Positions 50,244 to 51,043 of a stretch of DNA of 52,494 nt are shown piece after piece. Positions within the stretch are counted from its first letter, which is position 1. The number at the start of each line of letters is the position of its first letter. The DNA comes from Candidatus Daviesbacteria bacterium (GTDB lineage Bacteria > Patescibacteriota > Microgenomatia > Daviesbacterales > UBA10151), in the NCBI GenBank assembly GCA_041690695.1, contig JBEPVZ010000004.1:1-52494 (forward strand), in the 5' to 3' direction. Below the pieces are notes generated by a model, which saw nothing but the letters and a program-made list of their open reading frames with translations, made no database searches and had not been told where the DNA came from. The translations under genes and the position numbers were made by a program.

Positions 50244-50259
50244 ATACAATATTCAGTAT
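50244..50259. promoter_or_regulatory. NrdR-box-like palindrome overlapping the -10 of the leftward operon
   Basis: ATACAATATTCAGTAT followed by G-TTGACC, the same arrangement as at 45654-45669. Confidence 0.5.
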
Positions 50260-50325
50260 GTTGACCAACTAAACGTCCCTCATGGTAAGGTTATTGGGCA
50301 TATTGTATTGGCCATTAACAGACCT

Positions 50326-50341
50326 ATACAACATATTGTAT
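50326..50341. promoter_or_regulatory. NrdR-box-like palindrome overlapping the start codon of the mini-NrdR ORF
   Basis: ATACAACATATTGTAT; its last two bases are the AT of the ATG, exactly as at nrdR. Confidence 0.55.
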
Positions 50342-50492
50342 GGAATGCCCCTTTTGTAAAAATAAACTTAGTTTTGCGACTAATACTCGAATTGTCAAAA
50401 GCAGTAGTGAGATCCGGCGACGTCGGGAGTGTTTAAGTTGTCATCGTCGCTTTACGACTTATGAAAAATCGGAAGGAGAGCTTAAAAAATGA
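50340..50492 (+). CDS. zinc-ribbon-only NrdR paralog (50 aa; not in the ORF track)
   Basis: My translation is [50 protein letters not shown]. It matches the NrdR N-terminus and lacks the ATP-cone. Its TGA overlaps the next ATG (ATGA). Confidence 0.55.
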   Translation: [50 protein letters not shown]

Positions 50493-51043
50493 TTCTTTTA
50501 TTAATTATTGAAGGTATACTTTTACGAGTCCTACCTCATCCTGCTAACTTTACTCCAATTACAGCCGTAGCTATTTTGAGCGGAGTTTATCTGCCTAAAA
50601 AATGGGCTATTTTTATCCCGATTATTACTTTAGCCAGCTCAGATTATCTCTTGCTCTACCTCCATCCCTTCAGTCAGCAGTTTTTAACTCTCAATAGTTT
50701 TCACTCACCGACTGAACTCTTTTATTCGACGACCCCGTTTGTTTGGGGCAGCTTTATGATTTCCAGTCTAATCGGCTTAACCCTCCGAAAACACAATCGT
50801 TTTATGAATATCTTAAGGGGATCAATTATTGCCTCAGTCCAATTTTTTATTATTACCAACTTCGGGGTTTGGGCAGTCGGTTATTACCCTCAAAATTGGT
50901 CAGGCTTAATCGAAAGCTACACCATGGGCCTGCCATTTTATAGAAACACTTTGATTGGGGATATTTTTTATACTAGTCTCTTATTTGGGAGTTTCCGACT
51001 TGGATTACAATTTAAATCTCTTTGGCGACAATCTTTGAATTAG
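50489..51043 (+). CDS. small 6-TM membrane protein, possible transporter substrate-capture component
   Basis: 184 aa with 6 hydrophobic segments and N-terminal LPHPANFTPITAVAIL; translationally coupled to the mini-NrdR ORF. Confidence 0.6.
   Translation: MILLLIIEGILLRVLPHPANFTPITAVAILSGVYLPKKWAIFIPIITLASSDYLLLYLHPFSQQFLTLNSFHSPTELFYSTTPFVWGSFMISSLIGLTLRKHNRFMNILRGSIIASVQFFIITNFGVWAVGYYPQNWSGLIESYTMGLPFYRNTLIGDIFYTSLLFGSFRLGLQFKSLWRQSLN

What the first reader, a model, noticed from the sequence alone, without database searches (positions are those of the whole stretch)
50244..51043. Unannotated zinc-ribbon-only NrdR paralog with a duplicated NrdR operator, coupled to a small membrane protein
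Seen in sequence:
- 50340-50492 encodes a 50-aa peptide ([50 protein letters not shown]).
- It aligns with the N-terminal zinc ribbon of the full-length NrdR at 45135-45578 (MKCFFCGS...[19 protein letters not shown]).
- The DNA is also close. GTGAGATCCGGCGACGTCGGGAGTGTTTAAGTTGTCATCGTCGCTTTACGACTTATGA matches GTGAGATCCGTCGACGCCGGGAATGTTTAAAATGCCACCGTCGTTTTACCACTTATGA at nrdR.
- All four Cys and the RRRR motif are retained. The ATP-cone is absent, and the TGA stop overlaps the ATG of a 184-aa 6-TM protein (ATGA).

The upstream region is duplicated too:
- A 16-bp palindrome, ATACAACATATTGTAT (50326-50341), overlaps the ATG exactly as ATACAAGATATTGTAT does at nrdR.
- A distal box, ATACAATATTCAGTAT-G-TTGACC (50244-50266), mirrors the box-G-TTGACA arrangement at 45640-45669.
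- A degenerate box, ATTGGGCATATTGTAT (50293-50308), sits 33 bp from the proximal box.

Established: in NrdR the zinc ribbon binds DNA and the ATP-cone senses ATP/dATP.

Inference:
- A cone-less paralog could be a nucleotide-blind repressor, a competitor or partner of full-length NrdR, or a regulatory leader peptide.
- The coupled membrane protein would then belong to the RNR/dNTP regulon, for example in uptake of cobalamin or nucleosides for the B12-dependent NrdJ.
- I am not aware of a described stand-alone NrdR zinc ribbon.
Basis: partly seen in the sequence, partly recalled or inferred. Interest (0 to 1): 0.78.

Follow-up and report, generated by a model that had tools for sequence, protein, structure and literature searches.

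The report
Cone-less mini-NrdR heading a B12-uptake operon
An unannotated 50-codon gene encodes only the zinc-ribbon DNA-binding half of the ribonucleotide-reductase repressor NrdR. It is conserved under selection as the first gene of a probable vitamin-B12 uptake operon in a group of ultra-small bacteria, which suggests a new link between cofactor supply and control of DNA-precursor synthesis.

Summary

- **The ORF:** window 50340-50492 encodes a complete NrdR-type zinc ribbon (Pfam PF22811, 59.5 bits against a cut-off of 27.2). It has no ATP-cone, and its stop overlaps (ATGA) the start of a DUF6580 membrane protein.
- **The leader:** it is homologous to the resident nrdR leader, including the NrdR boxes.
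- **Not a decaying remnant:** four more cone-less "mini-NrdR" ORFs (47-51 aa) open DUF6580 operons in related Patescibacteria contigs (L088, L166, L167, L171). All five share derived residues (A/S13, T16; K26 in four). The syntenic L088/L171 pair gives dN/dS of about 0.10 (P = 4.5e-4).
- **The membrane protein:** DUF6580 is most likely a corrinoid transporter.
  - Its predicted fold resembles ECF S-components.
  - nrdJ lies directly upstream in 47 of 166 loci.
  - Transcobalamin-like DUF4430/toroid genes are neighbours in about 21 loci.
  - B12 riboswitches flank it in several phyla.
- **NrdR control:** NrdR-box promoters precede the operon in 12 loci. The window also holds btuR behind nrdJ.
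- **Mechanism (inferred, untested):** the mini most likely joins NrdR zinc-ribbon pairs or occupies NrdR boxes without sensing nucleotides.
- **Wider occurrence:** cone-less NrdR ribbons are also common, and uncharacterised, on phage contigs.

Verdict: a new variant of a known kind, of high interest.

The parts
50244..50259 (.). Distal NrdR box ATACAATATTCAGTAT, one base from the -35 element. It also lies 11 nt from the divergent 340-aa gene.
   Evidence: The same 'box-N-TTGAC' layout occurs at the resident nrdR and in front of DUF6580 operons in 12 other loci.
50261..50291 (+). Putative promoter: -35 TTGACC (50261-50266), a 19-nt spacer, and TGg+TAAGGT as an extended -10 (50283-50291).
   Evidence: Aligned with the homologous leaders of L088, L166, L167, L169 and the resident nrdR, which have TTGAC and TGnTATGTT. 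The generic sigma-70 scan did not flag it, so this is inferred.
50293..50308 (.). Degenerate middle NrdR box ATTGGGCATATTGTAT (good 3' half only), 33 bp centre-to-centre from the proximal box.
   Evidence: A 17-bp spacer lies within the 14-18 bp range that purified NrdRs tolerated (PMC12051234).
50326..50341 (.). Proximal perfect-core NrdR box ATACAACATATTGTAT overlapping the mini-NrdR start codon.
   Evidence: 0 mismatches. It is matched by ATACAAGATATTGTAT over the nrdR ATG at 45577-45592.
50340..50492 (+). mini-NrdR gene: 50 aa, a complete NrdR-type zinc ribbon (C3, C6, C31, C34; R17; R26-R29; R36-R37; T39-E42), no ATP-cone, N15 in place of D15.
   Evidence: Pfam 59.5 bits. PDB alignment and AF2/Foldseek match to NrdR. 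Orthologues in L166, L167, L088 and L171. dN/dS of about 0.1 between L088 and L171.
50471..50480 (+). Shine-Dalgarno GGAAGGAGAG for the DUF6580 gene, lying inside the mini-NrdR tail codons.
   Evidence: Read directly. AGGAG sits 10 nt before the ATG at 50489.
50489..51043 (+). DUF6580 membrane protein (184 aa), a probable corrinoid/cobalamin transporter with an ECF S-component-like fold. Its start overlaps the mini-NrdR stop (ATGA).
   Evidence: Pfam 158 bits. AF2 pLDDT 95.6. Foldseek matches FolT, RibU and PanT at TM 0.47-0.55. Genomic context.
45135..45578 (-). Resident full-length nrdR (zinc ribbon plus ATP-cone), first gene of the nrdR-nrdJ operon.
   Evidence: TIGR00244 172.7 bits, above its cut-off. 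Pfam domains.
45577..45669 (-). nrdR operator/promoter: proximal box 45577-45592 over the ATG, -35 TTGACA (45647-45652), distal box 45654-45669.
42626..45133 (-). nrdJ, the B12-dependent class II ribonucleotide reductase, immediately downstream of nrdR.
   Evidence: One search gives the ORF. It is 52-59% identical to the nrdJ genes that precede DUF6580 in other loci. Its identity as class II RNR rests on those homologies and on established knowledge; no Pfam search was run on it.
41685..42263 (-). btuR/cobO ATP:corrinoid adenosyltransferase, 340 nt downstream of nrdJ.
   Evidence: Pfam CobA_CobO_BtuR 167 bits.
42300..42315 (-). Single NrdR-like box ACACAATATAGAGTAG upstream of btuR, followed by a TATACT -10-like hexamer and the ATG.
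   Evidence: Score 12/14 on the box pattern. Functional status is inferred.

Best explanation
**What it is (shown).** Window 50340-50492 is a genuine, conserved, protein-coding small gene that has escaped annotation. It encodes a stand-alone NrdR-type zinc ribbon ("mini-NrdR") without the nucleotide-sensing ATP-cone.

**Where it sits.** It is the first cistron of an operon whose cargo gene, DUF6580, is most likely a solitary ECF-S-component-like importer of cobalamin or corrinoids. That cofactor serves the organism's B12-dependent reductase NrdJ. The operon is transcribed from an NrdR-box promoter. It therefore belongs, with nrdR-nrdJ and probably btuR, to one NrdR regulon devoted to AdoCbl-dependent dNTP synthesis.

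**In relatives.** The same promoter is followed by an AdoCbl riboswitch and terminator before the mini-NrdR. In this window the riboswitch is absent, and nrdR-type boxes occupy the leader instead.

**Mechanism (inferred).**
- The mini keeps the whole ribbon-ribbon pairing surface (R27, R29, T39-E42) and the phosphate-binding arginines. Its base-reading and cone-side residues have drifted.
- I therefore think it most likely enters zinc-ribbon pairs with full-length NrdR. It would act as a microProtein-like, nucleotide-blind subunit.
- This would loosen or re-tune NrdR occupancy of its boxes whenever the B12-uptake operon is switched on. Cofactor shortage would then feed forward into expression of nrdJ, btuR and the transporter.
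- The tight ATGA overlap also couples its translation to that of DUF6580.

**My probabilities.**

| Claim | Probability |
|---|---|
| Real selected gene | about 0.9 |
| DUF6580 is a B12/corrinoid importer | about 0.8 |
| NrdR control of the operon | about 0.75 |
| Mini acts through NrdR or its boxes | about 0.65 |
| Specifically by mixed pairing / anti-repression | about 0.4 |

The confidence value of 0.6 is for the statement as a whole, down to "acts through NrdR or its boxes".
For: **Gene reality**
- Four more cone-less ORFs of 47-51 aa pass Pfam Zn_ribbon_NrdR (63-70 bits). All sit in front of DUF6580 operons: L088, L166, L167, L171.
- The syntenic pair L088/L171 gives dS 0.83, dN 0.084. 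Only 8 of 22 nucleotide changes alter an amino acid (random expectation 14.9, P = 4.5e-4). 67% of random change sets would create a stop.
- Among the five minis, synonymous sites are saturated while the ribbon is kept.
- Shared derived residues are A/S13 and T16 in all five and K26 in four. Full-length NrdRs have V13 in 58/60, S16 in 49/60 and R26 in 58/60.
- The fold is confirmed.

**Transporter**
- S-component-like fold.
- nrdJ lies directly upstream on the same strand in 47/166 loci. Three loci read nrdJ-btuR-DUF6580. DUF4430 and alpha-toroid neighbours occur in about 21 loci.
- DUF4430 is the C-terminal domain of transcobalamins (PMC4350170).
- AdoCbl-type riboswitches lie upstream in candidate-phyla-radiation (CPR) loci. 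Classical cobalamin riboswitches flank DUF6580 in 14 of 20 loci from other phyla.
- btuR is present in the window.

**NrdR control**
- Exact palindromes and a leader homologous to nrdR.
- Box-N-TTGAC promoters lie in front of 12 DUF6580 operons. Four have a canonical second box 32 bp downstream.

**Pairing model**
- The interface residues are named in PMC12176259. The DNA-contact residues are named in PMC9110341.
- Interface residues are invariant in the minis. D15 and R17 vary: N15 twice, G17 once.
- The pairing half of the window mini is 18/20 identical to the resident NrdR despite pS of 0.68.
Against: - There is no expression, proteomic or binding data. The mechanism rests on residue conservation and regulatory logic only.
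- The interface residues are invariant in all NrdRs, so they do not separate homo-pairing from hetero-pairing.
- The DNA-contacting residues R/K26, R28, R37 and, in four of five minis, R17 are retained. This fits an autonomous box binder equally well.
- The mini is patchy. It is absent from several of the closest DUF6580 loci (L168, L169, L170, L227, L006, L002, L085-L087), so it is dispensable for the operon.
- None of the minis has a clear Shine-Dalgarno sequence.
- In this window's two promoters the second box expected at +31/32 is degenerate. The generic promoter scan found no promoter.
- DUF6580 fold matches have non-significant Foldseek E-values (0.4-8). The only PDB sequence hit is not significant: 6fnp_A, a 182-aa chain named only 'Membrane protein' (from memory, an ECF-CbrT entry), E = 3.3.
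- Whether L088, L166, L167 and L171 also have a full-length NrdR is unknown because the contigs are short.
Confidence: 0.6

Rival explanations
1. Autonomous nucleotide-blind box binder. Mini-NrdR homodimerises through its ribbon and occupies single NrdR boxes, notably the strong box that abuts the -35 element. It would repress its own operon and nrdR-nrdJ regardless of ATP/dATP.
For: - One zinc-ribbon pair carries all the contacts for one box (PMC9110341).
- R/K26, R28 and R37 are invariant in the minis. R17 is kept in 4/5, and D or N occupies position 15.
- The minis' own promoters have one strong box next to -35 and a weak partner.
- Phage minis keep D/E15 and R17.
Against: - NrdR affinity collapses when one box of a pair is lost (PMC12051234), so a lone ribbon pair should bind weakly.
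- R17G in L171 and D15N in two minis hit exactly the base-reading residues.
- In relatives the mini is made when AdoCbl is low. Repressing the uptake operon and nrdJ at that moment makes poor regulatory sense (inference).
Confidence: 0.27
2. Cis-acting translated leader. The ORF matters only because its translation across the ATGA overlap, through the Shine-Dalgarno sequence, delivers ribosomes to DUF6580. The peptide itself has no function.
For: - There is an ATGA overlap here and in L167, and a 6-nt gap in L166 and L171.
- The DUF6580 Shine-Dalgarno sequence lies inside the mini ORF.
Against: - A sequence-independent leader would not keep four Cys, RRRR and FTTYE across saturated synonymous divergence. 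It would not give dN/dS of about 0.1, or Pfam scores of 59-70 bits in five lineages.
- In L088 the next gene starts 25 nt downstream.
- Many relatives express DUF6580 without any such leader.
Confidence: 0.06
3. Non-functional remnant. The ORF is a fragment left when a duplicated or acquired nrdR(-nrdJ)-DUF6580 operon lost its ATP-cone and nrdJ. It appears conserved only because it was a working full-length nrdR until recently.
For: - Many relatives have nrdR-nrdJ-DUF6580 in a row, so an internal deletion would give this layout (L045).
- The leader is nrdR-like.
- Comparing the mini with the resident nrdR alone cannot separate old selection from recent truncation.
Against: - Five minis are truncated at the same domain boundary. 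Four of them sit behind a riboswitch, which is not an nrdR context.
- They share derived residues absent from full-length NrdRs.
- Two syntenic minis show dN/dS of about 0.1.
- No mini carries a stop or frameshift.
Confidence: 0.04

Closest known systems
NrdR, the ribonucleotide-reductase repressor (zinc ribbon plus ATP-cone; structures 7P37 and 9FXK)
   Same: - The N-terminal domain is the same over residues 1-43, with no gaps.
- It has the four Cys, R17, RRRR, R37 and the beta-3 pairing strand.
- The locus carries 16-bp palindromic NrdR boxes, one of them over the start codon, as at nrdR itself.
   Different: - There is no linker and no ATP-cone, so it cannot bind ATP/dATP and has no cone-cone contacts for tetramer formation.
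- It falls below the TIGR00244 cut-off (51 against 125 bits).
- It has N15 instead of the highly conserved D15 (55/60 full-length sequences here), and carries the clade signature A13/T16.
- It is encoded in a transporter operon rather than with RNR genes.
BtuM, a solitary S-component-like vitamin B12 transporter (PMC6072759)
   Same: Like DUF6580, BtuM is a small (about 20 kDa) multi-helix membrane protein with an ECF S-component architecture. It was predicted from B12-related gene context and is thought to work without a dedicated ECF module.
   Different: - The BtuM family has an invariant cobalt-ligating cysteine (Cys80). The window protein has no cysteine at all, and the DUF6580 alignment has no invariant Cys.
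- It is a different Pfam family.
- BtuM was not among the Foldseek hits.
ECF transporter S-components (FolT, RibU, PanT; CbrT for cobalamin)
   Same: These are the best structural matches of the DUF6580 model: TM 0.55 for FolT, 0.53 for RibU and 0.47 for PanT.
   Different: - Foldseek E-values are not significant.
- The only PDB sequence hit is not significant: 6fnp_A, named 'Membrane protein' (from memory, an ECF-CbrT entry), E = 3.3.
- No EcfT or EcfA genes were seen next to DUF6580 in the loci examined, and the window is too short to exclude an ECF module elsewhere.
MicroProteins and truncated dominant-negative regulators (Id versus bHLH, plant LITTLE ZIPPER versus HD-ZIPIII; from my own knowledge)
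   Same: This is a small paralogue that keeps the oligomerisation-competent domain of a transcription factor, has lost its regulatory domain, and is expressed from a target promoter of that factor.
   Different: - In NrdR the pairing domain is also the DNA-binding domain, so a mixed pair could still bind DNA.
- No interaction has been shown here. The resemblance is a model, not a test.
Cone-less NrdR-type zinc ribbons on phage and prophage contigs (PHROGs 36879 and 10675, 'unknown function')
   Same: They have the same stand-alone architecture, at 49-100 aa with PF22811 only. Examples are P0128 in a prophage and 49 of 55 IMG/VR hits.
   Different: - They sit in phage replication or early-gene neighbourhoods, not B12 operons.
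- They are a different sequence clade and keep V/I13 and D/E15.
- They too are uncharacterised.

Membership tests
Pfam PF22811 Zn_ribbon_NrdR (domain) | Full-length match to the 42-position profile above the gathering score | tested here: met
   59.5 bits against 27.2, profile positions 1-42 of 42. The other minis score 63.4-69.8 bits.
Pfam PF22811 Zn_ribbon_NrdR (domain) | Two CxxC motifs with NrdR spacing (C3, C6, C31, C34) and a three-stranded ribbon fold | tested here: met
   The sequence shows it directly. The AF2 model has strands 11-19, 24-31 and 37-43. The top 13 PDB fold matches are all NrdR, at TM 0.74-0.78.
NrdR repressor proper (TIGR00244 equivalog) | ATP-cone domain following the ribbon | tested here: not met
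   The ORF stops 7 codons after the ribbon. There is no PF03477 hit, and the TIGR00244 score is 51.3 against a cut-off of 124.65.
NrdR repressor proper (TIGR00244 equivalog) | Base-reading residues D15 and R17 and phosphate-binding R26-R29 and R37 (PMC9110341) | tested here: inconclusive
   R17, R26-R29 and R37 are present. Position 15 is N, whereas it is D in 55 of 60 full-length sequences.
NrdR repressor proper (TIGR00244 equivalog) | Binds paired NrdR boxes as a nucleotide-loaded tetramer | not testable with these tools
   This needs purified protein (EMSA/MST, SEC) or multimer modelling. Only single chains could be predicted here.
NrdR regulon (target operon) | Two 16-bp palindromic boxes 15-16 bp apart (14-18 bp tolerated) overlapping the promoter | tested here: inconclusive
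   - The window mini locus has one exact-core box over the ATG, a half-degenerate box 33 bp upstream (17-bp spacer) and a strong box at -35 located 82 bp upstream.
- Canonical 32-bp pairs occur in front of DUF6580 in L048, L077, L078 and L079.
Pfam PF20221 DUF6580 | Profile match above the gathering score | tested here: met
   158.1 bits against 27.
BtuM family of B12 transporters | Invariant cobalt-ligating cysteine (Cys80 of BtuM from Thiobacillus denitrificans) | tested here: not met
   The 184-aa protein contains no cysteine. There is no invariant Cys among 45 aligned homologues.
ECF S-component fold | Six-helix S-component architecture superposable on solved S-components | tested here: inconclusive
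   TM 0.55 (probability 0.97) to FolT 7nnt_C, 0.53 to RibU and 0.47 to PanT, but Foldseek E-values are 0.4-8.
B12 regulon (riboswitch-controlled genes) | A cobalamin riboswitch in the leader of the gene or operon | tested here: not met
   - No Rfam match at E <= 1 in window 50000-50600.
- The feature is met in relatives. AdoCbl-II hits at or above the gathering score lie in L028, L015, L093, L087 and L033. RF00174 occurs in 14 of 20 loci from other phyla. Near-threshold hits occur in L088, L166, L085 and L086.

The most novel reading that the evidence does not exclude
Mini-NrdR is the protein output of a cofactor-sensing circuit. In most carriers it is made only when the AdoCbl riboswitch is open and NrdR is off the promoter. 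It then reprogrammes the NrdR operator complex, through mixed zinc-ribbon pairs or direct box occupancy, so that B12 status is transmitted to nrdJ, btuR and the B12 importer independently of ATP/dATP.

Phages would have adopted the same cone-less module independently to override host NrdR control of dNTP supply. Together these would define a widespread, unrecognised class of "anti-NrdR" microProteins. DUF6580 would then be a new family of B12 importers in the NrdR regulon.
Probability: 0.35. Interest if true: 0.85.

Novelty: new variant of a known kind. Interest (0 to 1): 0.74.

Why it matters
**For NrdR biology.** NrdR is the near-universal bacterial repressor of ribonucleotide reductase genes, and its recent structures explain repression entirely through ATP-cone-driven oligomer switching. 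A naturally occurring, selected, cone-less paralogue offers a ready-made test of what a zinc-ribbon pair can do alone, and of whether NrdR can be modulated in trans. It would also be a rare bacterial example of microProtein-style control.

**For B12 uptake.** The context analysis gives a concrete, testable function (B12/corrinoid import) to a domain of unknown function found across several phyla. It also extends the NrdR regulon from enzyme genes to cofactor acquisition. This happens in Patescibacteria, organisms that depend on scavenging.

**For phage biology.** The abundance of similar ribbons on phage contigs suggests a route by which phages could manipulate host dNTP supply.

**For annotation.** Four of the five CPR (candidate phyla radiation, the Patescibacteria group) minis carry no gene call. 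That includes all three contigs whose gene calls I could inspect. Small regulatory genes of this kind are therefore being missed systematically.

Tried and rejected
1. **Word-indexed homology search with the 50-aa peptide alone** found one irrelevant fragment. The exhaustive HMMER search and a profile of four minis were needed. Most short hits there are frameshifted or contig-end fragments of ordinary nrdR, judged from their tails, and were not counted as minis.
2. **tblastn for a ribbon ORF in 160 DUF6580 loci** found only L088. The further examples came from the nearest Logan and JGI relatives.
3. **dN/dS of the mini against the resident nrdR** was rejected as proof of selection on the mini. 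A recently truncated xenologue would look the same. It was replaced by the mini-versus-mini comparison L088/L171.
4. **The generic sigma-70 scan** found no promoter at the mini locus. The promoter assignment rests on alignment with related leaders.
5. **Rfam searches** found no riboswitch in the window.
6. **tblastn of the window mini against GenBank phages** gave no match. Phage-type queries did give matches.
7. **A PDB sequence search with the DUF6580 profile** gave only a non-significant hit, 6fnp_A, a 182-aa chain named 'Membrane protein'.
8. **A programmed -1 frameshift fusing the ribbon to DUF6580** at the A6 run before ATGA was considered. It was set aside because L166, L088 and L171 have separated stops and gaps.
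9. **The box-like 16-mer at 19663-19678**, at the secA 3' end, was judged a chance match. It has 2-3 mismatches, and the pattern is not enriched window-wide.
10. **Heterodimer modelling** could not be run because only single-chain prediction is available.
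Full report
**1. The observation**

The sequence is as described.
- ORF 50340-50492 (+) encodes [50 protein letters not shown]. Its TGA overlaps the ATG of ORF 50489-51043.
- The peptide matches Pfam Zn_ribbon_NrdR over all 42 profile positions (59.5 bits, cut-off 27.2). It has no ATP-cone.
- The gene at 45135-45578 (-) is a full NrdR: ribbon 62.8 bits, ATP-cone 70.8 bits, TIGR00244 172.7 bits. It is followed directly by nrdJ (42626-45133).
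- The two ribbons are 26/43 identical.
- The mini aligns without gaps to residues 1-45 of E. coli NrdR and 1-43 of S. coelicolor NrdR, so published residue numbers transfer directly.
- An AF2 model (pLDDT 83.8) has the three ribbon strands. Its 13 best PDB fold matches are all NrdR (TM 0.74-0.78, rmsd 1.4-2.3 A).
- The three boxes and the box-G-TTGAC arrangement are at the stated coordinates.
- The 96-nt leader aligns to the nrdR leader at 60 positions, z = 8.3 against shuffles.
- The gene call on the identical public contig L001 skips the ORF. The peptide is not in the 5.8-billion-protein collection.

**2. A gene rather than a remnant**

Comparing the mini with the resident nrdR gives a striking pattern. 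In codons 24-43 there are 9 synonymous and 2 amino-acid-changing codon differences (pS 0.68, pN 0.08). On its own this cannot exclude a recently truncated foreign nrdR.

Relatives supply the decisive evidence.
- The nearest DUF6580 homologues are only 49-57% identical, so no close relative of this organism is available.
- Among them I found four more cone-less ribbon ORFs. Each is the first ORF of the DUF6580 operon.

| Locus | Coordinates | Length | Reference |
|---|---|---|---|
| L088 | 310-465 | 51 aa | |
| L166 | 1767-1913 | 48 aa | |
| L167 | 298-441 | 47 aa (ATGA overlap with the next gene) | |
| L171 | 1697-1846 | 49 aa (the only one called, by JGI) | |

- All pass the Pfam cut-off (63-70 bits).
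- L088 and L171 are syntenic minis. Between them dS = 0.83 and dN = 0.084. Only 8 of 22 nucleotide differences change an amino acid (random placement gives 14.9, P = 4.5e-4). Two-thirds of random change sets would introduce a stop.
- Across all five, synonymous sites are saturated while the four Cys, T16, R27-R29, L32 and R37-E42 are invariant.
- The five share derived residues: A/S13 and T16 in all five, K26 in four. Full-length NrdRs have V13 in 58/60, S16 in 49/60 and R26 in 58/60.

The five therefore look like one old clade maintained in the truncated state. The window's copy belongs to it rather than being a fresh copy of the resident gene.

The distribution is patchy. Several equally close DUF6580 loci lack a mini: L168, L169, L170, L227, L006, L002 and L085-L087.

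**3. The coupled membrane protein**

The 184-aa protein is DUF6580 (158 bits). No paper in the searchable library mentions this family.
- Its AF2 model is confident (pLDDT 95.6).
- The only structurally meaningful PDB matches are ECF S-components: FolT TM 0.55 (probability 0.97), RibU 0.53 and PanT 0.47. E-values are not significant.

Context is more informative. In 166 DUF6580 loci:
- 47 have nrdJ immediately upstream on the same strand. L045 shows the end of nrdR, then nrdJ, then DUF6580.
- Three read nrdJ-btuR-DUF6580.
- About 21 have a DUF4430 protein and a prenyltransferase-like alpha-toroid protein beside it.

DUF4430 is the C-terminal domain of transcobalamins (PMC4350170). From my own knowledge, an alpha-toroid plus this domain resembles the two-domain build of transcobalamin.

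Riboswitch evidence:
- AdoCbl-type riboswitches precede these operons in CPR loci. L028, L015, L093, L087 and L033 score at or above the gathering score. L088, L166, L085 and L086 score just below it.
- In Bacteroidota, Ignavibacteria, Omnitrophota and Planctomycetes, 14 of 20 DUF6580 loci carry classical cobalamin riboswitches at 71-115 bits.
- The window itself encodes BtuR/CobO 340 nt behind nrdJ (167 bits).

A corrinoid importer is therefore the best reading. It is not a BtuM. That family is defined by an invariant cobalt-ligating cysteine (PMC6072759), and this protein has no cysteine.

**4. Regulation**

The layout of a strong NrdR box, one base, then TTGAC occurs at several places:
- the resident nrdR;
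- the window mini locus;
- directly in front of DUF6580 operons in 12 other loci (L004, L048, L077, L078, L079, L088, L136, L166, L167, L168, L169, L171).

Only one other site of that quality appears in 0.8 Mb of sequence (both strands scanned).

L048, L077, L078 and L079 have a second box 32 bp downstream, which is the canonical 16-bp spacer (spacer rules in PMC12051234). B12 uptake thus appears to be part of the NrdR regulon in several Patescibacteria, either through its own promoter or by sitting behind nrdJ.

The leaders of L088, L166, L167, L169 and L171 are homologous. Each reads box/-35, TGnTATGTT, an AdoCbl-like aptamer core, a terminator and then the ATG. In four of them the first ORF is the mini.

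The window differs. It has no riboswitch. It has a short leader with the nrdR-type middle and proximal boxes instead. btuR is preceded by a single box-like site and a TATACT hexamer. That regulation is inferred.

**5. How the mini may work (inference)**

Published structures show the following.
- Each NrdR box is gripped by a pair of zinc ribbons.
- D15 and R17 read bases. R12, R26-R29 and R37 hold phosphates (PMC9110341).
- The ribbon pair is a rigid unit formed by strand 39-45 and salt bridges among R27, R29 and E42. The ATP-cones link pairs into nucleotide-dependent tetramers (PMC12176259).

The minis keep every pairing residue and the phosphate contacts. They vary at the base readers (N15 here and in L166, G17 in L171) and at V13. 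The pairing half of the window mini is 18/20 identical to the resident NrdR although synonymous sites there are near saturation.

I therefore favour a microProtein-like model, at about 0.4.
- The mini enters ribbon pairs with NrdR.
- The resulting complexes have fewer cones, so their operator occupancy is less governed by ATP/dATP.
- In relatives the mini is made only when AdoCbl is low. Loosening NrdR repression of nrdJ, btuR and the importer at that moment is a coherent feed-forward.
- In the window, where the mini is itself under NrdR boxes, the same action would give positive feedback.

The main rival, at about 0.27, is an autonomous, nucleotide-blind box binder. A purely cis-acting leader (about 0.06) and a dead remnant (about 0.04) fit the conservation data poorly.

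**6. Comparison and novelty**

The domain is a bona fide NrdR ribbon, but the protein fails the defining ATP-cone test for NrdR. Searches for truncated or paralogous NrdRs in the literature found nothing.

Stand-alone ribbons are not unique to this locus.
- P0128 is an intact 54-aa gene in a prophage.
- Of 55 NrdR-type ribbon ORFs on IMG/VR contigs, only 6 are of full length.
- PHROGs lists them as families of unknown function. Deposited phages label them hypothetical.

The finding is thus a new variant of a known kind. It is a conserved cone-less NrdR paralogue embedded in a probable B12-uptake operon of the NrdR regulon, with a likely parallel in phages.

**7. Limits**

- Everything beyond sequence, fold and context is inferred.
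- Carrier contigs other than the window are short, so co-occurrence with a full-length NrdR is shown only here.
- The mosaic affinities of the window locus are unexplained. The leader and ribbon half 2 resemble the resident nrdR, while ribbon half 1 resembles the mini clade.

Noticed in passing
window 41685-42263 (-) and 42300-42315: A BtuR/CobO corrinoid adenosyltransferase gene lies 340 nt downstream of nrdJ. It is preceded by a single NrdR-like box (ACACAATATAGAGTAG on the minus strand) and a TATACT hexamer just before its ATG. The NrdR regulon here may therefore also cover cofactor adenosylation.
   Followed up: partly
L024, L026, L034, L052, L059, L060, L067, L069, L070, L072, L073, L074 (and others): DUF6580 genes of Bacteroidota, Ignavibacteria, Omnitrophota and Planctomycetes are flanked by classical cobalamin riboswitches (RF00174, 71-115 bits) in 14 of 20 loci. 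This family of unknown function is a B12-regulon member across phyla.
   Followed up: partly
L088 132-202; L166 1619-1742; L167 about 100-250; L169 about 7270-7350; L171 about 1540-1620: The Patescibacteria operon leaders share a compact AdoCbl-like aptamer core (GTGCCGCTACCGTAAAGYCGGACC) followed by a terminator. It mostly scores below Rfam gathering thresholds, so it may be a divergent riboswitch variant that standard annotation misses.
   Followed up: partly
L172-L226 (IMG/VR contigs); L082 4001-4165 (prophage): 49 of 55 NrdR-type zinc-ribbon ORFs on viral contigs lack an ATP-cone. Examples are 49-aa proteins in L194-L196 and a 96-aa family in L201-L208. They fall in PHROGs 36879 and 10675, both of unknown function.
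   Followed up: partly
proteins P0124, P0133, P0127, P0125: Some predicted proteins carry two tandem NrdR-type zinc ribbons. In P0133 (and apparently in the shorter P0124) these precede an ATP-cone; in P0127 they precede an unrelated tail; in P0125 they sit inside what looks by eye like a sulfatase-modifying-factor-type protein (no domain search run). P0136 joins a ribbon to hydrophobic segments. These architectures were not examined further, and some may be assembly artefacts.
   Followed up: no
window 49211-50233 (-): A 340-aa protein with no Pfam or NCBIfam family starts 11 nt from the distal NrdR box, on the opposite strand, and heads an apparent operon with class II fructose-bisphosphate aldolase. 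It may share the NrdR-controlled divergent promoter region.
   Followed up: no
window 50483-50492: A run of seven A's (50483-50489), the last being the A of the DUF6580 ATG, runs into the ATGA stop/start overlap. A -1 slip there would fuse the ribbon to DUF6580. This is not conserved in L166, L088 or L171, so it is probably irrelevant.
   Followed up: partly
window 19663-19678: A box-like 16-mer (ATACAAGATATTATTT, 2 mismatches) lies at the 3' end of secA, about 410 nt upstream of a prephenate dehydratase gene. It is probably a chance match.
   Followed up: partly
PDB entry 9a6n: The best structural match of the mini model is the NrdR chain of an integrative Soj-NrdR model. NrdR ribbons or cones may therefore have protein partners other than NrdR itself. 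This is relevant to partner-based models but was not pursued.
   Followed up: no
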